In this document: piece by piece, positions 1 through 14,602 of the stretch
How positions within the stretch are numbered: the stretch's first letter is position 1
Layout: each line of letters opens with the position of its first letter
IMG/VR virus record: IMGVR_UViG_2908567220_000007
Reading direction: 5' to 3' (one strand)
Length of the DNA stretch: 14,602 bases
Source: a virus
Taxonomy: Duplodnaviria; Heunggongvirae; Uroviricota; Caudoviricetes
Made by a program: the position numbers and the translations under genes
The notes under the pieces: model-generated
Told to the model about the DNA's origin: nothing
What the model saw: only the letters and a program-made list of their open reading frames with translations
Database searches by the model: none

Positions 1-303
1 TTACTTCCTGCGTTTATCCTGCTTTGTATGCCCGTGCTGAATGCCCCGCAGTGGATCTTCTTTTTTCAGGTCGATCCCCATGTCCGTTAGTGTTTTTGTG
101 GCGGCGGTTCTTATGGCACAAATCAGGTCTCTTTCCGGTTCCCGGGTTATGGTTGCCTTCCGGATGCATGCCGTTCGTCGTTCCGTTACATACTGACGCG
201 CTTCATCACTTGCCGCCTGTTTCAGTAACTCACCCCAGCGATTAGCCGCCCGTCGCCATAAACCTTTCGCTTCCAGTTCTTCCGCTTTGTCATCATGCAC
301 CAT
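1..303 (-). CDS. PerC-family-like small transcriptional regulator (paralog of 4278..4565)
   Basis: ORF track gives 1..372; the probable start is the internal Met at 301..303 (MVHDDKAEELEAKGLWRRAANRW...), which aligns with the start of the paralog at 4278..4565 (MIRDSKAEELEAKGLYRRAAARW...RRAECIRRA) and has a GGGA motif upstream. Family assignment rests on recalled PerC/Pch motifs, not a search. Stop codon is at window position 1..3. Confidence 0.55.
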   Translation of the reverse strand: MVHDDKAEELEAKGLWRRAANRWGELLKQAASDEARQYVTERRTACIRKATITREPERDLICAIRTAATKTLTDMGIDLKKEDPLRGIQHGHTKQDKRRK

Positions 304-417
304 AAGCATAATCCCATTGATACCTGTTAAATCTGAATGGTTGGTTTCTGTTCTTTTGATAATTTTCCGCATAGCTTATTGTATGACAGTACTGTCCCAC
401 AATAAGGAGTTGCACGC

Positions 418-3436: not shown

Positions 3437-3985
3437 TTATTCCCCCTGGTGAATCTCCTGCACTACCTGCGGCGTGCTGTCGTGCCAGTCGTTAGCCTGT
3501 ATCACTCTGGTAGTAATTTGCCTGCACAGGTCATCAATAATCTGCCTGACGCGGTTTACTGCGTTCTGATTGATGCCTGCATCGTGCGCCAGAATGTCGG
3601 GGAGTTTTGCCAGTTCCTCGCTTAAGATTTTCCCAAAAATAACCAACTCCCTGCGCACATCCACGGCGGGGATAAGTTCAGCCGTTTCCTGCTCGAACTT
3701 AAGGCGCTCACGCTCAGACTGGTACCAGGCTTTACGGCTTTGTGGATCCATGTCTTCGAGTGATGCGGGGGCGGGTATATTCATGAATGCGCTGATTATA
3801 TCCGTCAGTCGGTACAGCTTTAATTTTTCATGCCCTCCGGCTGGCTGAATGTCCTTTAGCCTTTTCGCTACTGTCTGGCGGCAAACTCCCGCCAGTTCTG
3901 CGAGTTGATTGATATTAAGTTTCAGGTTTTTAAGCTCCCGATCCATTCGTCCTCCGGTAGTTTTAAATGCGTATCGTGCGCTCAT
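3437..3985 (-). CDS. Nu1-like terminase small subunit / packaging-redirection protein (N-terminal HTH)
   Basis: 182-aa ORF; N-terminal NINQLAELAGVCRQTVAKRL...KLYRLTDIISAF resembles the lambda Nu1 HTH (NKKQLADIFGASIRTIQNW...VLYDSAAVIKWY). Sits about 150-190 bp downstream of cos copy B, as Nu1 does after lambda cos. An internal Met at 3944..3946 with GGAGGA upstream is an alternative start. Confidence 0.55.
   Translation of the reverse strand: MSARYAFKTTGGRMDRELKNLKLNINQLAELAGVCRQTVAKRLKDIQPAGGHEKLKLYRLTDIISAFMNIPAPASLEDMDPQSRKAWYQSERERLKFEQETAELIPAVDVRRELVIFGKILSEELAKLPDILAHDAGINQNAVNRVRQIIDDLCRQITTRVIQANDWHDSTPQVVQEIHQGE
3445..3469. repeat. 25-bp direct repeat (copy 2), overlapping the 3' end of the Nu1-like gene
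   Basis: Exact match to 3068..3092, 377 bp apart. Confidence 0.85.
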
Positions 3986-4277: not shown

Positions 4278-4565
4278 TCACTGGTTACCGCCAGGCTGCT
4301 TCGGGTAGTTCCGCCAGACGGATTTACCCGCGTCTTCCATCCCCATCACCGCATGAGTGCGGTTTACAGCCTCTTTCAGTGCCCCGAAGTTATCCGCCAT
4401 AACGGGTGGGCGTGCTGCCCTGCGGATGCATTCCGCGCGACGCTTTGCCACCTGTTCGCGCTCCTTATCGGTGTTCACCAGCTGCATGACCTCAGCCCAC
4501 CGCGCCGCCGCTCTCCGGTACAGGCCTTTAGCCTCCAGTTCTTCCGCTTTGCTGTCACGAATCAT
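4278..4565 (-). CDS. PerC-family-like small transcriptional regulator
   Basis: 95-aa ORF MIRDSKAEELEAKGLYRRAAARWAEVM...RRAECIRRA, paralogous to 1..303; start overlaps the stop of the upstream ORF by 4 nt. Confidence 0.55.
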   Translation of the reverse strand: MIRDSKAEELEAKGLYRRAAARWAEVMQLVNTDKEREQVAKRRAECIRRAARPPVMADNFGALKEAVNRTHAVMGMEDAGKSVWRNYPKQPGGNQ

Positions 4566-5098
4566 GCGCCTGTCTTCTCCTTTGTCGCCTGACGTTTGCG
4601 CTTTTCATTCAGTGCTGCCAGCCGCGTTTCTGCCTCCTGCTGTTCCTGTGGTGTCACTTCCCCACATGGCTGGCCTTTCAGGTCGTAACGTGTGCCACCA
4701 GCCATTAAGGCGCGGTAATAGCGCGGAGACTGCGCATAAGATGCCAGCGTCGCACGTAATGCCCCCGGCCCGAATGTCAGCCCCCTGGCGGCGATATCCT
4801 GTATCAGGTCGTCGAATATCCCCACCTTAAGCGGCTTCGGTGCTTTATGGCTGAATAAGTCAGGCCACATCTCAGTGAGGCGGTTAACGCGTCGGCGGTT
4901 TTTGCGCTGCCTTTTGGTCATATGCTGACACGGTGTCGCCCCTGCGGTCTTCTGTTTGCGGCTCTGCTGTGCGTTCTGATTATCGGGTATCACTTTATGC
5001 GCCGATGTGGTTTTATCCTGCTCTTGTGCCGCCTGCGTCGTTTTCTGCGGCGTGCCGTAAATGCCTTTCGGTTTTCGGTTAATGGTCAGCTTTGTCAT
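4562..5098 (-). CDS. ProQ/FinO-domain protein (putative RNA chaperone)
   Basis: 178 aa; PLKVGIFDDLIQDIAARG...LRATLASYAQSPRYYRAL...GTRYDLKGQPCGEVTPQEQQEAE resembles the ProQ N-terminal FinO domain (PLKIGIFQDL...LRSALRLYTSSWRYL...[23 protein letters not shown], recalled). Basic, low-complexity N-terminus. SD AGGGGA upstream. Confidence 0.7.
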   Translation of the reverse strand: MTKLTINRKPKGIYGTPQKTTQAAQEQDKTTSAHKVIPDNQNAQQSRKQKTAGATPCQHMTKRQRKNRRRVNRLTEMWPDLFSHKAPKPLKVGIFDDLIQDIAARGLTFGPGALRATLASYAQSPRYYRALMAGGTRYDLKGQPCGEVTPQEQQEAETRLAALNEKRKRQATKEKTGA

Positions 5099-5134: not shown

Positions 5135-5560
5135 TTAAAACGGTATGTTATCCCCGTACGGGTCATCGTGCTGGCTTGTCTGTTGTTTTGCCCTGTTCAG
5201 TGCGTCAGTGGCCTGGCCCTGTTGACCTTTTTTGCCGCCCGGTCGCGCCGTTCGCGCACTGATTACGCTGTCTGCAATAACCTGCCAGCCCTGCCGCGTT
5301 TCCCCGTTCTGGCCTGTCCACTGGCTTACCTGCATGTTACCCGCCACGCTCACCAGTTCGCCTTTCTGGTGCCTGGCCAGTGCGTCGGCCTGTCTGCCAA
5401 ACGCCAGGACGGATAACCACATCGTCGCCGTTCCGTCATCTGCCTGGCTGCACGGCAGGGGAACCGCCATACTCGCCATCGCCATTTGTGTCCCTTTGCT
5501 GGTGGTCTTTAACTGCGGGTCAGCCACCAGCCGCCCGTAAGCCGCTATCTGTGCTGTCAT
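5135..5560 (-). CDS. ssb: single-stranded DNA-binding protein (SSB-like)
   Basis: 141 aa; OB-fold-like N-terminal region (AAYGRLVADPQLKTT...GTATMWLSVLAFGRQADALARHQKGELVSVAGNMQVSQWTGQNGETRQGWQVIADSV), Gly/Gln-rich linker and a C-terminal DDPYGDNIPF resembling the canonical SSB DDDIPF tip. ATGA overlap with the upstream ORF. Confidence 0.7.
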   Translation of the reverse strand: MTAQIAAYGRLVADPQLKTTSKGTQMAMASMAVPLPCSQADDGTATMWLSVLAFGRQADALARHQKGELVSVAGNMQVSQWTGQNGETRQGWQVIADSVISARTARPGGKKGQQGQATDALNRAKQQTSQHDDPYGDNIPF

Positions 5561-6330
5561 GCTGTATGTTCTCCGTTTTTTACTGGCCCTGTCATCAGTG
5601 CGCGCTTAAGCTGCTTGTGTGAGATATTAAACAGGCAGTTCATTCTTCCCGTTCGCTTCATCCGATAACCCGATGCGACCATTGCGGCGATTAATGCGCC
5701 GTTTGTGATGTATGTCGGCTCTGTTGGTTGCCCGTCGCCCTTAGCTCTTCTCTGATTCACACGCTCAACACAATGTTTCAGGCCGTAGGATGTCGGATTT
5801 TTTCCAGGGAATGATGCAATCTTACAGTCGGTTAGGTTGTTCTCCCTTATCCAGCGTAAACAGCTCATCGCCTCCGCCATGAAGGGCGCATAATCAAGCG
5901 GGTGCTGCCATGCCTTATCACGGCTGTACAGTTCAAGTCCGTCGCGGTTAAAAAACGGGTAAGCGGCAAGAATTACCGTTACTGCGTGTTTAATTTCCAC
6001 CTCATCATTCTGTCGCTCTTTTTCTGTTCCGTACGGATAATAATCAGAACCGCCCGGATTGATGCACTGTTTACCACTGAAAGGCCATTGCTTCGCCATT
6101 TCGGGGGTTGAGTGATTACCGTCGCTCCGTTCTCGTTGTGCCTCTGTCCACTGGCTGGCGTATTCCGTAAAACTCACCGCCTTACTCTGTCGCATCCAGT
6201 GCGCAATCATGACCAGCGTTCTGGTAAGGCTCTGTATATCTCCGTGCTTCTCACACTGTCCCGCAAAGGCCTTGAGCGCTTCGCGTTCTTTGTAGTTCAT
6301 ACCCTGACGGGTCATATTTTCTTTATTCAT
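5557..6330 (-). CDS. hypothetical protein, replication-module associated
   Basis: 257-aa ORF immediately downstream of the iteron array and translationally coupled to the SSB-like gene; no family recognised by eye. Confidence 0.55.
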   Translation of the reverse strand: MNKENMTRQGMNYKEREALKAFAGQCEKHGDIQSLTRTLVMIAHWMRQSKAVSFTEYASQWTEAQRERSDGNHSTPEMAKQWPFSGKQCINPGGSDYYPYGTEKERQNDEVEIKHAVTVILAAYPFFNRDGLELYSRDKAWQHPLDYAPFMAEAMSCLRWIRENNLTDCKIASFPGKNPTSYGLKHCVERVNQRRAKGDGQPTEPTYITNGALIAAMVASGYRMKRTGRMNCLFNISHKQLKRALMTGPVKNGEHTA

Positions 6331-6511
6331 TCCCCACTACTCCCCGCTTTTGTTCCCCACTTTTTAAATTTCCCACTTGCTTCCCACCTCGTTTTTTGGG
6401 TGAGTCTAATACTTTGTTTTTCATTGTATTTTTTACTCCCCACTTTTTTGGATGTATACAGGCCGGAAAGTGGGGAATAGCGTTTCAATTTTGTTAAATT
6501 CCCCGCTATCC
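6331..6511. repeat. iteron-like repeat array (putative replication origin), left part
   Basis: Eight copies of TCCCCACT-like heptamers (CCCCACT, CCCCGCT, TCCCACT, TCCCACC) at about 6332, 6342, 6355, 6371, 6382, 6438, 6501 plus an inverted copy GTGGGGA at 6470, around an AT-rich spacer (6391..6435). Confidence 0.5.
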
Positions 6512-6596
6512 GTAACCGTCTCATTTAAACCGTCTTTCGCCTCCCTTTCCTGTTTCCGATACTAATGTCCATTTTCGCAGTAAAGGGACATTTAAG

Positions 6597-7247
6597 ATGA
6601 ATGCACGAAAAGCGGTACTGGCAGACAATCCGGAATTGATCCTGCGTGTGCTACAGCTGAGATTTGACGAGTCACTGTCGTACCCGCGCATTTCTGCGCA
6701 GACCGGTGTCAGCAAAACCGCCATTTTTTCTCTGGTGAGGCGATTTCACCAGGTATTCACTGACTGGCCTCTTTCCGGTGAATATTCCTGCGGGCAACTG
6801 GCCCGGGCTCTTTTCCCGGGGCGATACCCTTCAGCCCCGACCGTGACTCAGCCTGTGAAAGCAGAGAAACCCCGCCGGAACCGATTTTCACCGGAGTTTA
6901 AATGGAGACTGGTTCAGCAAACTCTTTTACCCGGTGCCTGTGTCGCACAAATAGCTCGAGAGAATGGAATTAACGATAACCTGCTCTTTAACTGGCGGCA
7001 TCTCTGGCGTAACGGTGGCCTGCAACCGCCCGGCGAACATGAAACATCGCTACTTCCCGTGACGTTAACTCCGGAGCCGGATAATAAAATCCCGGCACCA
7101 GTGCAGATACCTGAACAGATAAATACACTGCCAGACAGTCTGTGCTGCGAGCTGGTTCTGCCGGCCGGAACTCTCAGGCTGAAAGGTGAACTGACACCGG
7201 CGTTATTACAGACACTTATCCGCGAAATGAAAGGGAGCAGCCACTGA
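6597..7247 (+). CDS. tnpA: IS66-family accessory protein (orf1)
   Basis: 216-aa ORF, first in the IS; AAGGGA Shine-Dalgarno; ATGA overlap with the next ORF, as is typical for IS66 elements. Confidence 0.75.
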   Translation: MNARKAVLADNPELILRVLQLRFDESLSYPRISAQTGVSKTAIFSLVRRFHQVFTDWPLSGEYSCGQLARALFPGRYPSAPTVTQPVKAEKPRRNRFSPEFKWRLVQQTLLPGACVAQIARENGINDNLLFNWRHLWRNGGLQPPGEHETSLLPVTLTPEPDNKIPAPVQIPEQINTLPDSLCCELVLPAGTLRLKGELTPALLQTLIREMKGSSH

Positions 7248-7594
7248 TGATATCTCTCCCTGCCGGTTCGCGTATCTGGCTGGTTGCCGGTATCACCGAT
7301 ATGCGAAATGGCTTTAACGGCCTGGCCTCAAAAGTTCAGAACGTCCTGAAGGATGACCCGTTCTCCGGGCATCTGTTCATCTTCCGCGGACGCCGGGGTG
7401 ACCAGATAAAAGTGCTGTGGGCTGACAGTGACGGACTGTGCCTCTTCACCAAACGCCTGGAGCGGGGCCGCTTCGTCTGGCCGGTCACCCGCGATGGAAA
7501 GGTTCACCTTACTCCGGCTCAGTTGTCCATGCTTCTCGAAGGCATCGACTGGAAGCACCCGAAACGAACGGAACGCGCTGGCATCCGCATATAA
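7247..7594 (+). CDS. tnpB: IS66-family protein TnpB (orf2)
   Basis: 115-aa ORF MISLPAGSRIWLVAGITDMRNGFNGLASKVQ...LFIFRGRRGDQIKVLWAD, characteristic of IS66 orf2. Confidence 0.85.
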   Translation: MISLPAGSRIWLVAGITDMRNGFNGLASKVQNVLKDDPFSGHLFIFRGRRGDQIKVLWADSDGLCLFTKRLERGRFVWPVTRDGKVHLTPAQLSMLLEGIDWKHPKRTERAGIRI

Positions 7595-7613
7595 CCCGTT
7601 GTAAAGTGAGGAT

Positions 7614-9185
7614 ATGGACACCTCACTTGCTCATGAGAATGCCCGCCTGCGGGCACTGTTGCAGACGCAACAGGACACCATCCGCCAGATGGCGAAATAC
7701 AACCGCCTGCTCTCACAGCGGGTGGCGGCTTATGCTTCCGAAATCAACCGGCTGAAGGCGCTGGTTGCGAAACTGCAGCGCATGCAGTTCGGTAAAAGCT
7801 CAGAAAAACTTCGCGCTAAAACCGAACGGCAGATACAGGAAGCCCAGGAGCGAATCAGCGCACTTCAGGAAGAAATGGCGGAAACGCTGGATGAGCAATA
7901 TGACCCGGTACTGCCATCCGCCCTGCGCCAGTCTTCAGCCCGTAAGCCGTTACCGGCCTCACTTCCCCGTGAAACCCGGGTCATCCGGCCGGAAGAGGAA
8001 TGCTGCCCGGCCTGTGGTGGTGACCTCAGTCCTCTGGGGTGTGATGTGTCAGAGCAACTGGAGCTTATCAGCAGCGCTTTTAAGGTTATCGAAACACAAC
8101 GTCCGAAACTGGCCTGTTGCCGGTGCGACCATATCGTGCAGGCACCAGTACCTTCAAAACCCATTGCACGCAGTTATGCCGGAGCGGGGCTTCTGGCTCA
8201 TATCGTCACCGGGAAGTATGCAGACCATCTGCCGTTATACCGCCAGTCAGAAATATACCTTCGTCAGGGCGTGGAACTGAGCCGCGCCACGCTGGGGCGC
8301 TGGACCGGTGCCGTTGCTGAACTGCTGGAGCCGCTGTATGACGTGCTGCGCCAGTATGTGCTGATGCCCGGTAAAGTCCATGCGGATGATATCCCCGTTC
8401 CGGTCCAGGAGCCGGGCAGTGGTAAAACAAGAACTGCCCGGCTGTGGGTCTATGTCCGTGATGACCGTAACGCCGGTTCACAGATGCCCCCGGCGGTCTG
8501 GTTCGCGTACAGCCCGGACCGGAAAGGTATCCATCCACAGAATCACCTGGCCGGTTACAGCGGTGTGCTTCAGGCAGATGCTTACGGTGGTTACCGGGCG
8601 TTATACGAATCCGGCAGAATAACGGAAGCCGCGTGTATGGCCCATGCCCGGAGAAAAATCCACGATGTGCATGCAAGAGTGCCAACCGACATCACCACGG
8701 AAGCCCTGCAGCGTATCGGTGAACTGTATGTCATCGAGGCAGAAGTCCGGGGATGTTCAGCAGAACAGCGTCTGGCAGCAAGAAAAGCCAGAGCGGCTCC
8801 ACTGATGCAGTCACTGTATGACTGGATACAGGAACAGATGAAAACACTGTCGCGTCACTCGGATACGGCAAAAGCGTTCGCATACCTGCTGAAACAGTGG
8901 GAGGCCCTGAACGTGTACTGCAGTAATGGCTGGGTGGAAATCGACAACAACATCGCAGAGAACGCCTTACGGGGAGTGGCCGTAGGCCGGAAAAACTGGC
9001 TCTTCGCGGGTTCCGACAGCGGTGGCGAACATGCGGCGGTGTTGTACTCGCTGATCGGCACATGCCGTCTGAACAATGTGGAACCAGAAAAATGGCTGCG
9101 TTACGTCATTGAGCATATCCAGGATTGGCCGGCAAACCGGGTACGCGATCTGTTGCCCTGGAAAGTTGATCTGACCTCTCAGTAA
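7614..9185 (+). CDS. tnpC: IS66-family transposase (orf3)
   Basis: 523-aa ORF with N-terminal coiled-coil/leucine-zipper-like region, CCPACGG...CCRC zinc-finger-like motif and a long catalytic core, as in IS66 transposases; GAGG Shine-Dalgarno. Confidence 0.9.
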
Positions 9186-9215
9186 ATATCAATACGGTTC
9201 TGGCGAGCCGCTTAC

Positions 9216-9243
9216 CGCTATCCCCACTTTTATCCCCCACTTT
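9216..9243. repeat. iteron-like repeat array, right part (separated from the left part by the IS66 insertion)
   Basis: cgctatccccacttttatcccccactttt carries two further CCCCACT copies immediately after the right target duplication and just 3' of the helicase stop at 9244. Confidence 0.5.
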
Positions 9244-10650
9244 TTACAGTGGATGCACGTCATTGCCGTCGATAGTGATCACGCCGTCTTTTTCCAGCTT
9301 GTACAGCCAGCGCCGGAAGTGCTTCATCTCATACCCCAGCTTTTTCATATCGTCACGTAGCAGGGCGATAGTGCACGGCTCTTTGTGTGCTGTCCGTGTT
9401 CTTATGCACTGCCATAATGCGGCGTGATTCTCCGTCTTGTTCCCGGCCTCCTCGATGCGTTCCAGTTCAGCAGGGGCGCGGGGAACGTCAATCACCACCA
9501 TGGACACAATCTCTTCGCCATCTGTATCGGTGAACACCTCCACGCTTTTAAGGTCGTATGCGCTCTCTTTTGGCTCCTCTGCGTCCTTCATCTTCGTACA
9601 TGCCGCCACCAGTGCTGTAACGTCTGAATTTTCCCGGCCGATTCGGTACTCTGCATCAAGCGCGGCACGGAATGCGCTGGAACCACGCGCCCCCTTTGTT
9701 TCATCCTTGCCGGAATGGTGAACCACCAGCACCGTGGCCCCTGTAGCCTGCTTTATCGCGTCACACCCCTGGATAAATGCGCCCATATCACGGGAATCAT
9801 TTTCATCATTCCCACCAAAGCAACGGGCCAGCGTGTCGATCACAATCAGCCGCACATTTTCGCCCGTTCTGCTCTTAACAAGTCCGGCAGTCCTGATAAC
9901 CTGCTCCACATAGTCAGGCGATGCGGGAAAGACAGGCGCGTTAACGATGCACAAATCTGTAACCTCTTTTCCGTATGTTATCTCCCACGCCTTAACGCGG
10001 CGTTTTACGCCCATACTGCCTTCGCCAGCGATATAGATAACCGCGCCCTTACTTACCCTGCGGCCTCCCCATGCCATACCTGTGGCAACATGGCACGACC
10101 AGGAAATAGCCAGGAACGATTTATAAGAACCGCTGGCCCCGTAGGTGCTGCATAATGACTCAGCCGGAATAAGCCCCTTAATTACGTAGCTTTGCTGCGC
10201 GTCGAATCCCTCAGAACCCCATGAGATGGGAAGTGTGATTTTTCGCTTTCCACCATTCATGACCAGACTTTCCCCGCGTTCCCAGGTTTCTTTAAGCCGC
10301 GGTAGTTGCTCGCTCCAGTCCTCCAGCAGTTCGAAATTCTCTGAAAGTAACCGTGCTTCCTGGACACCTGCGATCGCCAGTTTGGTGGCAATGGTCAGCA
10401 TCTGCATATCGTCCAGGTTTCCGGCGCGTATGACCTTTGCTCTGTATCGTCCTTCATCAACAATCTGTAAATTGTCCAGTTCGCTTAACTGATAACGGCC
10501 CAGGTAAACCGGAGGGATGGGATCGCCTGCTTTTTTGGCCTGTGCAATCATGTAATGTTCTGCAAAGGAGTGAGCATTATCACCCGCAAAAATAACCGCC
10601 TCAGTGTGTTTATCTTTCGGTAACAGTTTTACGTTCGGTGCCAGTTTCAT
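9244..10650 (-). CDS. RepA-like P-loop replicative helicase (RecA-fold ATPase)
   Basis: 468 aa; P-loop-like GASGSYKS, Walker B-like RLIVIDTL, and VLVVHHSGK motif reminiscent of RSF1010 RepA-type helicases; C-terminal winged-helix-like tail; AGAGGT Shine-Dalgarno; followed directly by the iteron array. Confidence 0.75.
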   Translation of the reverse strand: MKLAPNVKLLPKDKHTEAVIFAGDNAHSFAEHYMIAQAKKAGDPIPPVYLGRYQLSELDNLQIVDEGRYRAKVIRAGNLDDMQMLTIATKLAIAGVQEARLLSENFELLEDWSEQLPRLKETWERGESLVMNGGKRKITLPISWGSEGFDAQQSYVIKGLIPAESLCSTYGASGSYKSFLAISWSCHVATGMAWGGRRVSKGAVIYIAGEGSMGVKRRVKAWEITYGKEVTDLCIVNAPVFPASPDYVEQVIRTAGLVKSRTGENVRLIVIDTLARCFGGNDENDSRDMGAFIQGCDAIKQATGATVLVVHHSGKDETKGARGSSAFRAALDAEYRIGRENSDVTALVAACTKMKDAEEPKESAYDLKSVEVFTDTDGEEIVSMVVIDVPRAPAELERIEEAGNKTENHAALWQCIRTRTAHKEPCTIALLRDDMKKLGYEMKHFRRWLYKLEKDGVITIDGNDVHPL

Positions 10651-10946
10651 TTTTTACCTCTGGATGCGCTGAGCATGCTTTTTATTTTCTTAATATTTTC
10701 CCGTGCTTTTTCCCTGCTGGTGGGCTTACTGCGTGTTGCGTTCTGTACCAGAGAAAAATCACGCCGGAACTGATAAACAGGCATCACGCAGTCATAGCCG
10801 TACCCATCACGGCGGTAAGTAACGCACCGTCCCGCCACGCTTTTAATCGTTACCGTGCCGCCGTAGTTATCCCGGAAAATATCGCCGGGGTGGATTTCAG
10901 GCCGAGCGGGGCCGCTGGCAGTAAAGCCAGAATTTTTCTGTTTCAT
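10647..10946 (-). CDS. hypothetical protein
   Basis: 99-aa ORF whose stop overlaps the helicase start by 4 nt (translational coupling); no family recognised. Confidence 0.5.
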   Translation of the reverse strand: MKQKNSGFTASGPARPEIHPGDIFRDNYGGTVTIKSVAGRCVTYRRDGYGYDCVMPVYQFRRDFSLVQNATRSKPTSREKARENIKKIKSMLSASRGKK

Positions 10947-10951
10947 GGTTT

Positions 10952-11185
10952 TTATTTCCCGGTGTGTTGTTCTTTATATCTGTCGTGCAAAAGATCTATT
11001 TCTTGTAGTTCCATTATTACCGGCTCAAGAAGCGTTATTAACGCCGTCGCAATATTGCTGTTGCGTTTATCTCTTTCATTATCGCCAAGCGTTCCAAGCC
11101 ATAAGCGCAATATTTCAAGCATGTTTTCACTGTAAGCAAGAGCACGGTATGCACGGTCTACTGTGTCATTGTAAATATCACACAT
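10952..11185 (-). CDS. hypothetical protein
   Basis: 77-aa ORF with GAGGA Shine-Dalgarno 8 nt upstream; 8-nt overlap with the upstream ORF. Confidence 0.5.
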   Translation of the reverse strand: MCDIYNDTVDRAYRALAYSENMLEILRLWLGTLGDNERDKRNSNIATALITLLEPVIMELQEIDLLHDRYKEQHTGK

Positions 11186-11411
11186 GGCTTACATCCTCAG
11201 GGAATTTTCTTCTGTAACGCGCCTCTGCCACATATTCAGCATAGTCCGACGCAATAACGAGAATATCGCTGCCTGTTCCTGAATGCTCAGTGGTTCCAAT
11301 TAAAAAACATGCGGCCTTTATCAGGTCATTAACAACCAGCAACGCATCACCCGCATCATCCGATACGCCATCAAATTCCTGTTTCAGGGCATTAAAACGA
11401 TCATCACGCAT
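11178..11411 (-). CDS. hypothetical protein (possibly the C-terminal part of a frameshifted gene)
   Basis: 77-aa ORF whose ATG lies 2 nt after a 9-nt poly-G tract (plus-strand poly-C 11414..11422); one extra G would fuse it in frame to the 11384..11644 ORF. Confidence 0.45.
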   Translation of the reverse strand: MRDDRFNALKQEFDGVSDDAGDALLVVNDLIKAACFLIGTTEHSGTGSDILVIASDYAEYVAEARYRRKFPEDVSHV

Positions 11412-11644
11412 AACCCCCCCCCATTTTCACAATCAGCAATCAGGATAGCCCTGGCCTCATTCAGTGCCATATCAGCGGTAAGCTGTGCGTAGGCCAGCGA
11501 ATGCGGGATTATTGCCCCTGTATATTCCGGCTCTCTGGTAATGTGTTTTTCCGCGGTTGCTGCCGTGCATGAAATATCAATCAGCGCATCAATCAGTGTT
11601 TTGATTGCTTCGGCGACTGCGTCCGGACGGGTGTTATTGCACAT
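11384..11644 (-). CDS. hypothetical protein (possibly the N-terminal part of a frameshifted gene)
   Basis: 86-aa ORF with GGGGG Shine-Dalgarno; reads through the poly-G tract as GGG and stops 9 codons later. Confidence 0.45.
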   Translation of the reverse strand: MCNNTRPDAVAEAIKTLIDALIDISCTAATAEKHITREPEYTGAIIPHSLAYAQLTADMALNEARAILIADCENGGGLCVMIVLMP

Positions 11645-12624: not shown

Positions 12625-12831
12625 TTACGCAGCCGTTCCGCGCGCTTCTTCCTCGCGCTCTTTCAGCCAGGCCAGCACTTCATCTTCATACCAGCCAACA
12701 CGGCGCAGACCGATTTTGAAGCCTTTCGGGAATTTTCCGGCGTTGATCATGTCCTGTAGCGAACTGTCTGCCTTGATGCGCAGAATATTTTTTACTTCCT
12801 GACGGGTAAGTATTTTTCTGATTGTTTCCAC
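12625..12831 (-). CDS. alpA: AlpA-family phage transcriptional regulator (Vis/excisionase-like HTH)
   Basis: 68 aa; LTRQEVKNILRIKADSSLQDMINAGKFPKGFKIGLRRVGWYEDEVLAWL matches the AlpA pattern (KFP...G.R.VGW...E...W). Confidence 0.85.
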   Translation of the reverse strand: METIRKILTRQEVKNILRIKADSSLQDMINAGKFPKGFKIGLRRVGWYEDEVLAWLKEREEEARGTAA

Positions 12832-13360: not shown

Positions 13361-14602
13361 TTACACGGCACGGATACCCCTTTTACCACTGGCTATGGTC
13401 ACTCCGGTAGCTGCGGCCTCTACAAATTCCCCCCACCAGCGCATAAGCACCACGCGCTTTTCCAGGTAGTTACTTCGGTTATATGCTCGCCTTACCTCGT
13501 TTGTGTCCACGTGTGCGAGTGCGGCCTCGATTACGTCCGGCTCGAATCCTTCCTCGTTCGCTGCTGTACTGAATATGGCGCGTAATCCGTGAGACACCAG
13601 CACACCAGCGTAACCCATCCGGCGCAATGCGGCGTTAGCTGTCTGGCTGCTCATTGGCAGCATTGGATTTTTAAGGCTGGGAAAAACGTGTTCCCTGTGT
13701 GCGCTGATTGGCTTCATGGTTTCCAGTACAGCCATAGCCTGACCGCAAAGGGGGATCACGTGGTCACGGCGCATCTTCATGCGTCCGGCTGGAATCGTCC
13801 AGGTTTCGGCATCGAGATCTATTTCTTCCCAGCGTGCGGCGGCTGCTTCGGCTGGGCGTGCTACGGTCAGCAGTTGCCACTCAATCAGCAATCTGGTTTG
13901 CCGTTCTATGCTGGCGACCGATAAATCGTGCATTAGCTGCGGTAGCTGTTCCGGTCGGATGGTTGGCATGTGCTTTTTGGTGGGTGAGGGGAATGCCTTG
14001 CGGACGTTCGCGGCGGTGTTGATGTCAATCAGCCCACTGTTGGCAGCAAAATCCATCACTTCATTGATGCGTTGTAAAACGCGTTTCAGGGTTTCCAGGT
14101 TGCCGCGTGCTTTAATGGGTGTGAGTATCTCAACAAAGCGGCGAGCTGTGAGGGTATCTATTGGCGTGTTTCCGATGTACGGGAATACGTATTTTTCCAG
14201 GGATCGCCAGATATCCTTAATCGTGTTGTAAGCCAGATTCTGGCCTTTTTTCATCTCGTACCAGTCCGAGGCAACTTTTTCGAACGTGTTGCCCTTTTTC
14301 CGACTCTCTGCTTCACGTTTCCGGCGTTCGTGGTCCTGTGGGTCAACTCCCTTCGCTATGAGTGACCTGTATTCATTCCGTCGTTCTCTGGCATCGGACA
14401 GGGAAACATCATTCAGCGATCCGAGGCTGATGATAGTCCGTTTTTTATCTGCCGGGCGGTAGTACGTAAAACGCCAGATTTTTGATCCGGAGGGTTTCAC
14501 CAGAAGAAATAATCCTCCACCATCCTGCAGGGTGTATTCCTTTTCCCCTGGTCGTGCGTTTTTGATCTCCGTAATAGTTAGTGGGGTGGTTTTTCGTGCC
14601 AT
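13361..14602 (-). CDS. int: P4-type tyrosine integrase (site-specific recombinase, phage integrase family)
   Basis: 413 aa; N-terminal arm-binding-like region (MARKTTPLTITEIKNARPGEKEYTLQDGGGLFLLVKPSGSKIWRFTYY); C-terminal catalytic region with HGLR box and RRAYNRSNY tyrosine region. Start codon is the last three bases of the window. Confidence 0.95.
   Translation of the reverse strand: MARKTTPLTITEIKNARPGEKEYTLQDGGGLFLLVKPSGSKIWRFTYYRPADKKRTIISLGSLNDVSLSDARERRNEYRSLIAKGVDPQDHERRKREAESRKKGNTFEKVASDWYEMKKGQNLAYNTIKDIWRSLEKYVFPYIGNTPIDTLTARRFVEILTPIKARGNLETLKRVLQRINEVMDFAANSGLIDINTAANVRKAFPSPTKKHMPTIRPEQLPQLMHDLSVASIERQTRLLIEWQLLTVARPAEAAAARWEEIDLDAETWTIPAGRMKMRRDHVIPLCGQAMAVLETMKPISAHREHVFPSLKNPMLPMSSQTANAALRRMGYAGVLVSHGLRAIFSTAANEEGFEPDVIEAALAHVDTNEVRRAYNRSNYLEKRVVLMRWWGEFVEAAATGVTIASGKRGIRAV

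What the first reader, a model, noticed from the sequence alone, without database searches (positions are those of the whole stretch)
6331..9243. IS66-family element inserted precisely into the iteron array (putative ori) of the replication module
The IS (6512..9215) is flanked by an 8-bp duplication CGCTATCC, and the sequence on both sides is the same run of CCCCACT-like repeats. Removing the IS and one duplication copy restores a continuous iteron/AT-rich region of about 210 bp between the helicase stop (9244) and the next gene (6330). The insertion separates the helicase from most iterons and from the downstream SSB/FinO genes, so it may have disabled autonomous replication or changed operon expression.
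Basis: seen in the sequence. Interest (0 to 1): 0.65.

Follow-up and report, generated by a model that had tools for sequence, protein, structure and literature searches.

The report
IS66 insertion splitting a phage-satellite origin
A common 2.7-kb jumping gene (IS66 family) recently landed inside the replication origin of a small phage-satellite island in one pig E. coli strain; this is real and neatly documented, but it is an ordinary transposition event.

Summary
Window 6512..9215 is a complete 2,704-bp IS66-family element (tnpA, tnpB, tnpC; imperfect 25-bp inverted repeats starting GTAA). It is flanked by a perfect 8-bp duplication, CGCTATCC. Four other 100% identical copies sit elsewhere, each with its own 8-bp duplication.

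Nine public E. coli genomes encode the identical 468-aa helicase without the IS, and all nine contain the reconstructed 201-bp intergenic region exactly. Two of these islands differ from the reconstruction by one homopolymer indel in about 10.36 kb. One genome, CP024978.1, carries the IS and matches the window 100%. The insertion is therefore very recent and, in the data searched, strain-specific.

The target has the layout published for origins of phage-inducible chromosomal islands (PICIs). It lies immediately 3' of the replication gene and holds ten AAGTGGGG-type iterons in two sets around a 73% A+T spacer. Relatives in other genera keep this layout while the iteron core changes. One E. coli relative differs only in the helicase's last ~70 residues and in its iterons.

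The IS lies between iterons 2 and 3. The duplication leaves every iteron intact, but two are now 2.7 kb from the rest. Damage to replication and to downstream expression is plausible but untested. Interest is low.

The parts
6512..9215 (+). Complete IS66-family insertion sequence, 2,704 bp (ISCro1/IS679-like)
   Evidence: Three family-typical ORFs. 100% identical full-length copies occur in many porcine E. coli chromosomes and plasmids. The ends are confirmed by four other copies with different flanks.
6512..6536 (+). Left terminal inverted repeat (GTAACCGTCTC...)
   Evidence: Aligns with the reverse complement of the right end, about 16/25 matches.
9191..9215 (-). Right terminal inverted repeat (GTAAGCGGCTC... 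read inward)
6504..6511 (.). Target-site duplication, left copy CGCTATCC
   Evidence: IS-free alleles have a single copy.
9216..9223 (.). Target-site duplication, right copy CGCTATCC
6597..7247 (+). tnpA (216 aa, HTH_Tnp_1)
   Evidence: RefSeq name for the identical protein: IS66-like element accessory protein TnpA.
7247..7594 (+). tnpB (115 aa, PF05717 IS66 Orf2-like)
7614..9185 (+). tnpC (523 aa, DDE transposase of the IS66 family with zinc finger and leucine zipper)
   Evidence: It falls in a 90% identity cluster with ISCro1-family transposases.
6331..6388 (-). Distal iteron set: five direct copies of AAGTGGGG-like octamers (6331, 6341, 6354, 6370, 6381)
6389..6436 (.). 48-bp spacer, 73% A+T, the putative unwinding region
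6437..6507 (-). Part of the proximal iteron set left next to the spacer: direct iteron 6437-6444, palindrome TGTATACA 6453-6460, inverted iteron 6469-6476, direct iteron 6500-6507
   Evidence: The same arrangement occurs in relatives from other genera.
9221..9241 (-). The two helicase-proximal iterons (9221-9228, 9234-9241), now 2.7 kb away from the rest of the origin
9244..10650 (-). RepA-family (SF4, RecA-fold) helicase, 468 aa, the putative initiator. The C-terminal ~70 aa (nt 9247-9453) are the putative iteron-reading domain
   Evidence: AAA_25 domain. Core matches RSF1010 RepA by sequence and by fold. The C-terminal domain is modelled as helix-helix-helix-beta-beta at pLDDT 79-93. It covaries with the iteron core.
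5557..6330 (-). First gene downstream of the origin (257 aa, unknown function), followed by SSB (5135-5560), ProQ/FinO (4562-5098), PerC (4278-4565) and DUF1441/TerS-like (3437-3985)
   Evidence: All lie on the same strand as the helicase and are now separated from it by the IS, which is in the opposite orientation.
12625..12831 (-). alpA-type activator gene (context: marks the island as a Gram-negative PICI)
13361..14602 (-). Tyrosine integrase (context). Relatives sit at tRNA-Pro next to yejM

Best explanation
The window is a roughly 11.9-kb Gram-negative phage-inducible chromosomal island (PICI): int, alpA, early genes, DUF4222, RepA-type helicase, origin, SSB, ProQ/FinO, PerC, TerS-like. 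It has taken up one extra copy of a currently active IS66-family element. The IS transposed by the usual DDE mechanism with staggered cuts 8 bp apart. It landed between the second and third iteron, counted from the helicase stop codon, and duplicated CGCTATCC. The event is very recent and seen in one genome, E. coli CP024978.1. That is probably strain CV839-15 from a diarrhoeic piglet, whose plasmid carries an identical IS copy. The target is the island's replication origin. It has ten 8-bp iterons in two sets around an A+T-rich spacer, immediately 3' of the helicase gene. The helicase's C-terminal domain, which looks like a winged helix, most likely reads the iterons. Shown: the IS identity and ends, the duplication, the exact empty site, the recency, the origin-type architecture, and its evolutionary coupling to the helicase C-terminus. 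Inferred: that the array is a working origin; that moving two conserved iterons 2.7 kb away weakens initiation; and that 2.7 kb of oppositely oriented IS reduces read-through from the alpA-driven operon into the downstream genes. On that reading the satellite's helper-induced replication and transfer are lowered rather than necessarily abolished.
For: IS family membership. Duplication and inverted repeats. Identical copies elsewhere, each with its own 8-bp duplication. Empty site: related islands in strains C5 and Br_190 are colinear across the site. Nine loci with the identical helicase contain the 201-bp reconstruction exactly, and L097 and L095 differ from the reconstructed island by one homopolymer indel in about 10.36 kb. 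L094 (CP024978.1) matches the window 100% over 10,359 bp including the IS. Plasmid CP024975.1 of strain CV839-15 carries an identical IS. Origin: published PICI origins lie immediately 3' of rep, with two iteron sets flanking an A+T-rich region, and this was shown functional for EcCICFT073 (PMC6092414). SaPI origins have 6-12 iterons read by a C-terminal winged helix of Rep (PMC9371898). Here there are ten iterons, a 73% A+T spacer and a GC dip to 0.34. In 66 of 78 loci of helicase relatives (49-65% aa identity, many genera), the most repeat-rich 260-bp stretch of the locus lies at the helicase stop. The layout is kept while the core changes between GTGGGG, GTGAGG, GTGCGG, TGGGGG and TGCGGC. 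The L006 helicase is about 100% identical up to roughly residue 400, differs in the last ~70 aa, and is the only close relative with GTGGGC iterons. L003 and L005 differ heavily in the N-terminal half but keep both the C-terminal helix GYEMKHFRRWLYKLE and GTGGGG iterons. The same island backbone with a DUF927 replication gene has different iterons (TAACCCGCAA) in the same place. Polarity: the identified genes are all on the minus strand (two unassigned small ORFs lie on the plus strand), and no sigma-70 consensus promoter was found in the intergenic region or the IS. Gram-negative PICIs are transcribed unidirectionally under AlpA control.
Against: No experiment shows that this array is an origin or that the helicase binds it. 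The helicase is an SF4 RepA type, not the Pri-Rep tested in EcCICFT073. The duplication leaves all ten iterons intact. Eight iterons, the A+T-rich spacer and the palindrome remain contiguous, so the origin may still fire. P4 shows that iteron clusters kilobases apart (ori and crr) can cooperate; that comparison is from my own knowledge, not tested here. The promoter scan is a crude consensus search, so an internal promoter for the downstream genes is not excluded. The winged-helix assignment rests on predicted topology and covariation only; sequence searches of the C-terminal domain against Pfam and PDB found nothing. Only a sample of the contigs carrying this helicase was read (24 of 53 index blocks, 10 places shown).
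Confidence: 0.85

Rival explanations
1. The insertion is functionally neutral. The origin still works, using the eight contiguous iterons alone or with the two displaced ones brought back by DNA looping. The downstream genes have their own promoter. The IS would then be a passenger carried along whenever a helper phage mobilises the satellite.
For: All iterons are intact and 8 of 10, plus the A+T-rich spacer and palindrome, are contiguous. SaPI origins are reported to conserve at least two iterons on each side of the A+T region (PMC9371898), and that condition is still met here. Iteron number varies among relatives: L003 lacks one proximal copy and L005 has a 410-bp origin.
Against: The helicase-proximal direct iterons are conserved in position from E. 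coli to Xenorhabdus, Kosakonia and Morganella, though their number varies between two and three. That argues they are under selection. No consensus promoter lies downstream of the IS. The allele was seen in one genome only, against nine IS-free ones, and the junction is absent from the genome and metagenome collections searched.
Confidence: 0.3
2. The repeat array is not an origin but another kind of cis site, such as operators of a transcription factor controlling the downstream genes or a packaging (pac/cos) site. The IS would then have hit a regulatory or packaging region.
For: No direct replication data exist for this module. The last iteron abuts the start codon of the 257-aa gene, so a regulatory role for some copies is conceivable.
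Against: Position, copy number, two-set layout and A+T-rich centre match published PICI and SaPI origins. The array follows the helicase gene, not the downstream gene, which differs between relatives (257 aa versus 83 aa). The iteron core covaries with the helicase C-terminus. The array is exchanged together with the replication gene.
Confidence: 0.08
3. The 2.7-kb segment is native island content and the 8-bp match is coincidental.
For: None beyond the prior possibility.
Against: Nine islands with the identical helicase lack it and carry the exact junction-free sequence. Identical copies occur in unrelated contexts with their own duplications. An 8-bp match by chance is about 1 in 65,536.
Confidence: 0.01

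Closest known systems
IS66-family elements of Enterobacteriaceae: ISCro1 (name used by NCBI annotation) and IS679 of plasmid pB171 (Han et al. 2001, J Bacteriol 183:4296; the reference is confirmed, its details are from memory)
   Same: The tnpA-tnpB-tnpC order, a DDE TnpC with zinc finger, GTAA-initiated imperfect inverted repeats, an 8-bp duplication and a length of about 2.7 kb. TnpC clusters at 90% identity or more with ISCro1-family transposases. Nucleotide identity to ISCro1-labelled copies is 94% over 85% of the length. From memory, IS679 is described as 2,704 bp with 25-bp inverted repeats, which is the length found here.
   Different: The left ~418 bp differ from the ISCro1-labelled copies. 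The exact ISfinder name could not be checked: there was no IS reference library, and neither pB171 nor the 2001 paper is held.
Replication origin of Gram-negative PICIs, e.g. EcCICFT073 (Fillol-Salom et al. 2018, PMC6092414)
   Same: It lies immediately 3' of the replication gene, has two iteron sets flanking an A+T-rich region, and sits inside a unidirectional alpA-controlled operon.
   Different: The replication protein is an SF4 RepA-type helicase with no recognisable primase domain, preceded by a DUF4222 gene, rather than the tested Pri-Rep. The iterons are mostly in one orientation, with a single inverted copy and a conserved TGTATA(T)AC palindrome. Function has not been tested.
SaPI origins and self-loading Rep helicases (PMC9371898)
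   Same: Six to twelve short iterons directly after rep, an A+T-rich centre, and specificity residing in a C-terminal winged-helix domain of the helicase.
   Different: SaPI Reps are SF3 or SF6 helicases, whereas this one is SF4. The iterons here are octamers, not penta- or hexamers.
RSF1010 RepA hexameric helicase (PDB 1g8y, 1nlf)
   Same: The ATPase core is homologous by sequence (E 6e-5) and by fold (probability 1.0, rmsd 3.5 A over 150 residues).
   Different: RSF1010 RepA has 279 residues and no origin-binding domain; a separate protein, RepC, binds the iterons (my own knowledge). The protein here has extra N-terminal (~145 aa) and C-terminal (~150 aa) regions.
Satellite phage P4 ori/crr (from my own knowledge)
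   Same: Octamer iterons bound by the C-terminus of a helicase-containing initiator in an E. coli satellite. Two iteron clusters kilobases apart still cooperate.
   Different: P4 alpha is a primase-helicase of another family. The separation in P4 is native, not caused by an IS.

Membership tests
IS66 family insertion sequence | Three consecutive ORFs tnpA, tnpB, tnpC, with TnpC a DDE transposase (PF03050) and TnpB matching PF05717 | tested here: met
   HTH_Tnp_1 7.5e-17; TnpB_IS66 2.8e-40; DDE_Tnp_IS66 9.5e-104, plus zf-IS66, LZ_Tnp_IS66 and IS66_C
IS66 family insertion sequence | Imperfect terminal inverted repeats beginning 5'-GTAA (family feature from established knowledge: ISfinder, Han 2001) | tested here: met
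   GTAACCGTCTC... and GTAAGCGGCTC..., about 16/25 matches
IS66 family insertion sequence | 8-bp target-site duplication | tested here: met
   CGCTATCC here; four other copies each have a different 8-bp duplication
IS66 family insertion sequence | Evidence of mobility: the same element at unrelated sites, and an empty site available | tested here: met
IS66 family insertion sequence | Identity to a named ISfinder entry (IS679 or ISCro1) | not testable with these tools
   No IS reference library. The closest label seen is NCBI's 'ISCro1 family'.
PICI-type replication origin | Located immediately 3' of the replication initiator or helicase gene | tested here: met
   In the reconstructed allele the first iteron starts 3 nt after the helicase stop. 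The same position holds in 66 of 78 distant relatives.
PICI-type replication origin | Two sets of short iterons flanking an A+T-rich region | tested here: met
   5 + 5 iterons around a 48-bp spacer of 73% A+T
PICI-type replication origin | Iterons are cognate to the adjacent Rep (specific recognition) | tested here: inconclusive
   Comparative evidence only: the iteron core covaries with the helicase C-terminal ~70 aa and is swapped together with the replication gene.
PICI-type replication origin | Rep plus ori drive autonomous replication | not testable with these tools
   Needs the plasmid-maintenance assay of PMC6092414
Gram-negative phage-inducible chromosomal island (PICI) | Integrase at one end, alpA activator, replication module with origin, unidirectional gene order, about 10-15 kb, no phage structural or lysis genes | tested here: met
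   int 13361-14602, alpA 12625-12831, helicase plus origin, and all identified genes on the minus strand. The island is about 11.9 kb without the IS. The only packaging-related gene is a TerS-like DUF1441. Relatives sit at tRNA-Pro/yejM.
Gram-negative phage-inducible chromosomal island (PICI) | Induction, replication and packaging depend on a helper phage | not testable with these tools
   Requires experiments

The most novel reading that the evidence does not exclude
The split origin may still fire, either through the eight contiguous iterons or by looping in the two displaced ones as in P4 ori/crr. The satellite would then be a high-frequency, phage-packaged vehicle spreading this IS66-family element between E. 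coli strains. In the opposite case the insertion is a first step in domesticating the satellite: it fixes the PerC, ProQ and SSB cargo in the chromosome. Either way, this strain and its near-identical IS-free relatives form a natural near-isogenic pair for dissecting a Gram-negative PICI origin that is served by an SF4 RepA-type self-loading helicase.
Probability: 0.15. Interest if true: 0.4.

Novelty: already known. Interest (0 to 1): 0.2.

Why it matters
The practical value is limited. First, this stretch of the genome can be annotated correctly as a PICI with an IS-interrupted origin, rather than as a string of hypothetical genes and transposases. Second, nature has supplied matched alleles: islands identical except for the IS and one homopolymer indel. 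These would allow a clean test of how much of a Gram-negative PICI origin is needed, and whether the operon is polar across the origin. Third, the side analysis points to the C-terminal ~70 residues of the RepA-type helicase as the iteron reader and suggests that this domain and the origin are exchanged as a cassette. That fits what is known for SaPIs and extends it to an SF4 helicase. None of this would surprise a specialist, because IS insertions into A+T-rich intergenic DNA of mobile elements are commonplace.

Tried and rejected
- **IS name.** I tried to fetch pB171 (NC_002142, AB024946) and Han et al. 2001 (DOI and PMC95320) to confirm the name IS679. None is held. Literature searches for IS679 gave only passing mentions. 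The name stays a lead from memory.
- **IS-origin junction elsewhere.** The exact junction was not found in the one-genome-per-species collection or in JGI metagenomes. No complete RefSeq E. coli genome in the local collection covers 80% or more of the window.
- **Promoters and terminators.** The scan of 6200-9400 found no promoter-like site and a chance-level number of terminator-like sites. It gives no positive evidence either way.
- **RNA families.** Rfam at gathering thresholds found nothing in the window.
- **Helicase structure.** Single-sequence AlphaFold of the helicase was unusable (pLDDT 40). The 30-sequence alignment gave a usable N-terminal domain and C-terminal domain but a weak core.
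- **C-terminal domain identity.** Whole-model Foldseek recovered only the RecA/RepA core. Sequence and profile searches of the C-terminal domain against Pfam and PDB found nothing significant. The winged-helix call therefore rests on predicted topology.
- **Target preference.** I considered an insertion preference of the IS for origins. The five duplications share no consensus, so there is no support for it.
- **Native content.** I considered and rejected the idea that the 2.7 kb is native to the island.
Full report
**1. The observation**

Window 6512..9215 (2,704 bp) carries three same-strand ORFs. ORF 6597-7247 matches HTH_Tnp_1. ORF 7247-7594 matches PF05717, the IS66 Orf2-like TnpB. ORF 7614-9185 matches DDE_Tnp_IS66 at 9.5e-104, together with the IS66 zinc finger, leucine zipper and C-terminal element. 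The two ends form imperfect inverted repeats starting GTAA. The octamer CGCTATCC is present at 6504-6511 and again at 9216-9223.

**2. The element is a discrete, currently mobile IS**

The 2,704 bp occur at 100% identity and full length in many E. coli chromosomes and plasmids, mostly porcine ETEC or STEC isolates. More diverged copies occur in 3,183 of 5,426 complete genomes and in 2,747 plasmid records. I read four of the identical copies with their flanks. Similarity stops at exactly the bases corresponding to window 6512 and 9215. Each copy has its own 8-bp duplication: TTTTCTCT, GCAGTAAT, GATAAAAA, CTTGATAT.

NCBI annotation labels 94%-identical relatives as the 'ISCro1 family', and the TnpC protein clusters with them at 90% identity. 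From memory, the length and 25-bp inverted repeats fit IS679 of Han et al. 2001. I could not check that name.

**3. The empty site exists**

An in-silico excision (IS plus one duplication copy removed) gives a 201-bp intergenic region. It aligns colinearly, with a single CGCTATCC, to islands in E. coli C5 and Br_190.

A look-up of the exact 468-aa helicase is more decisive. It returned ten loci, nine without the IS and one with it. All nine IS-free loci contain the 201-bp reconstruction as an exact string. Two of them (L097, GCA_012996805.1; L095, GCA_021116955.2) differ from the reconstructed island by a single homopolymer indel over about 10.36 kb: A7/A6 at window 2821 and G9/G10 at window 11423.

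The IS-bearing locus, L094 (chromosome CP024978.1), is 100% identical to the window over 10,359 bp and is presumably the source. Plasmid CP024975.1 of E. coli CV839-15, from a diarrhoeic piglet in Harbin, carries an identical IS. Its adjacent accession number suggests it belongs to the same strain, which would supply a donor copy.

The junction sequence was not found in the species-representative genomes or in the metagenome contigs. The insertion is therefore very recent and, in the data searched, confined to one strain.

**4. What was hit: the island**

The surrounding island has the make-up of a Gram-negative phage-inducible chromosomal island. All of the following genes lie on the minus strand:

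| Gene | Window coordinates |
|---|---|
| Tyrosine integrase | 13361-14602 |
| AlpA-type activator | 12625-12831 |
| DUF4222 | 10647-10946 |
| RepA-family helicase | 9244-10650 |
| 257-aa protein, unknown function | 5557-6330 |
| SSB | 5135-5560 |
| ProQ/FinO | 4562-5098 |
| PerC | 4278-4565 |
| DUF1441/TerS-like | 3437-3985 |
| Second PerC | 1-372 |

Small early genes lie between alpA and DUF4222. Relatives sit between tRNA-Pro/yejM and yejO. Some carry TerS or a full capsid module instead of the accessory region seen here.

**5. What was hit: the origin**

For Gram-negative PICIs the origin is described as the region immediately 3' of the replication gene, with two iteron sets flanking an A+T-rich region. 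This was shown to be functional for EcCICFT073 (PMC6092414). SaPI origins have the same plan, and their iterons are read by a C-terminal winged helix of the Rep helicase (PMC9371898).

Read on the helicase strand, the reconstructed 201 bp has this order:
- three direct AAGTGGGG-like iterons, starting 3 nt after the stop codon;
- one inverted iteron;
- a TGTATACA palindrome;
- one direct iteron;
- a 48-bp spacer of 73% A+T;
- five more direct iterons, the last ending at the start codon of the next gene.

The clustering is far beyond chance.

**6. Comparative support for the origin reading**

I fetched 80 loci encoding helicase relatives (49-65% amino-acid identity) from Citrobacter, Xenorhabdus, Pantoea, Kosakonia, Morganella, Pectobacterium, Serratia and other genera.

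In 66 of the 78 loci that could be analysed, the most repeat-rich 260-bp stretch of the whole locus lies at the helicase stop. The best 7-mer averages 5.1 copies there, against 2.2 copies in other stretches. The layout is retained: 2-3 direct iterons, one inverted, a TATA-type palindrome, one direct, a spacer, then 3-5 direct. The iteron core changes by clade between GTGGGG, GTGAGG, GTGCGG, TGGGGG and TGCGGC.

Within E. coli, the L006 helicase is essentially identical to the window's up to about residue 400. It diverges only in the last ~70 residues, and it is the only close relative whose iterons read GTGGGC. L003 and L005 show the reverse pattern. Their N-terminal halves are only 45-50% identical to the window's, yet they keep both the C-terminal helix GYEMKHFRRWLYKLE and GTGGGG iterons.

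An island with the same backbone but a DUF927 replication gene has a different iteron (TAACCCGCAA) in the same position.

The helicase core is homologous to RSF1010 RepA. An alignment-based model gives the last 70 residues as helix-helix-helix-beta-hairpin at pLDDT 79-93, which fits a winged helix. No sequence match confirms that assignment.

Taken together, the array behaves as the cognate cis site of the helicase's C-terminal domain, that is, as an origin. This is strong comparative inference, not a demonstration.

**7. Consequences of the insertion**

The IS sits between iterons 2 and 3. Because the duplicated octamer spans the end of one iteron and the start of the next, both are regenerated, so no iteron is lost. 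Two iterons remain next to the helicase stop (9221-9241). The other eight, with the palindrome and the spacer, lie 2.7 kb away (6331-6507).

Arguments for damage:
- The proximal direct iterons are conserved in position across genera.
- The IS lies in the opposite orientation, between the helicase and the downstream genes of what is described as a unidirectional AlpA-driven operon.
- No consensus promoter was detected beyond the IS.
- The island grows from about 11.9 to 14.6 kb.

Arguments for tolerance:
- Both sides of the spacer still carry at least three iterons.
- Iteron number varies naturally among relatives.
- Distant iteron clusters cooperate in P4 (my own knowledge).

For scale, deleting pri-rep in EcCICFT073 lowered transfer about 100-fold rather than abolishing it. 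My estimate is about 0.6-0.7 that helper-induced replication or transfer of this copy is impaired. It is an estimate only.

**8. Verdict**

The event is a textbook transposition of a known, abundant IS into the origin of a known class of satellite. It is well documented here by exact empty-site alleles, but it is not surprising. Its main use is as a natural allele pair for origin and polarity experiments. Novelty: already known kinds. Interest: 0.2.

Noticed in passing
window 11415-11423 (minus-strand gene region): A poly-G tract is G9 in the window and in L097, giving separate ORFs of 86 aa (11384-11644) and 77 aa (11178-11411). It is G10 in L095, where gene calls show one fused 155-aa ORF at this position. 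L092 and L100 also have a 155-aa call there, but their tract length was not checked. This may be a slippage-prone switch or a programmed-frameshift site in the satellite's early operon.
   Followed up: partly
L006 3190-3400 versus window 9247-9453, with the adjacent origins: The helicase C-terminal ~70 aa and the iteron core change together (GYEMKHFRRWLYKLE with GTGGGG; GYDTKHLKRWLAKLE with GTGGGC), while the rest of the protein stays about 100% identical. This suggests a recombination breakpoint near residue 400 and a C-terminal-domain-plus-origin specificity cassette.
   Followed up: partly
L090 (E. coli EC556 chromosome NZ_AP027440.1, 1208816-1211519): An identical copy of the same IS interrupts a gene for a DUF3987-domain protein; from memory, this domain occurs in satellite primase/helicase proteins. 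The same annotation lies under the IS copies of strains EC571 and EC581. It may be another satellite replication function hit by this IS.
   Followed up: no
L091, L093 versus L092, L095-L100: The identical helicase-origin-SSB-ProQ-PerC block is joined to different integrases and chromosomal sites: a 409-aa integrase next to the ilvGEDA leader; a site near a YdgH/BhsA-like gene; and the yejM/tRNA-Pro site. The early-gene sets also differ. The satellites are modular mosaics.
   Followed up: no
window 6453-6460 and the equivalent position in L007-L045: A TGTATA(T)AC-type palindrome lies between an inverted pair of iterons and is conserved in all origin variants examined, even where the iteron core differs. 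Its role is unknown.
   Followed up: no
L005 3418-3827 (E. coli HNSQ2209): The origin region is 410 bp instead of about 200 bp. The extra A+T-rich segment (33% GC overall) carries additional iterons in both orientations.
   Followed up: no
window 1-372 and 4278-4565: The island encodes two PerC-family regulators. According to PMC6092414, some PICI PerC homologues activate the LEE pathogenicity island.
   Followed up: no
window 9244-10650, residues 10-125: The helicase N-terminal domain is confidently modelled as an alpha/beta fold (pLDDT 76-93) with no Pfam match. It is not conserved in most relatives from other genera, where matches start near residue 135. Its function is unknown.
   Followed up: partly
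window 6328-6338: The last iteron (6331-6338) directly abuts the ATG of the 257-aa ORF. Gene callers disagree between a 257-aa and a 247-aa start.
   Followed up: no
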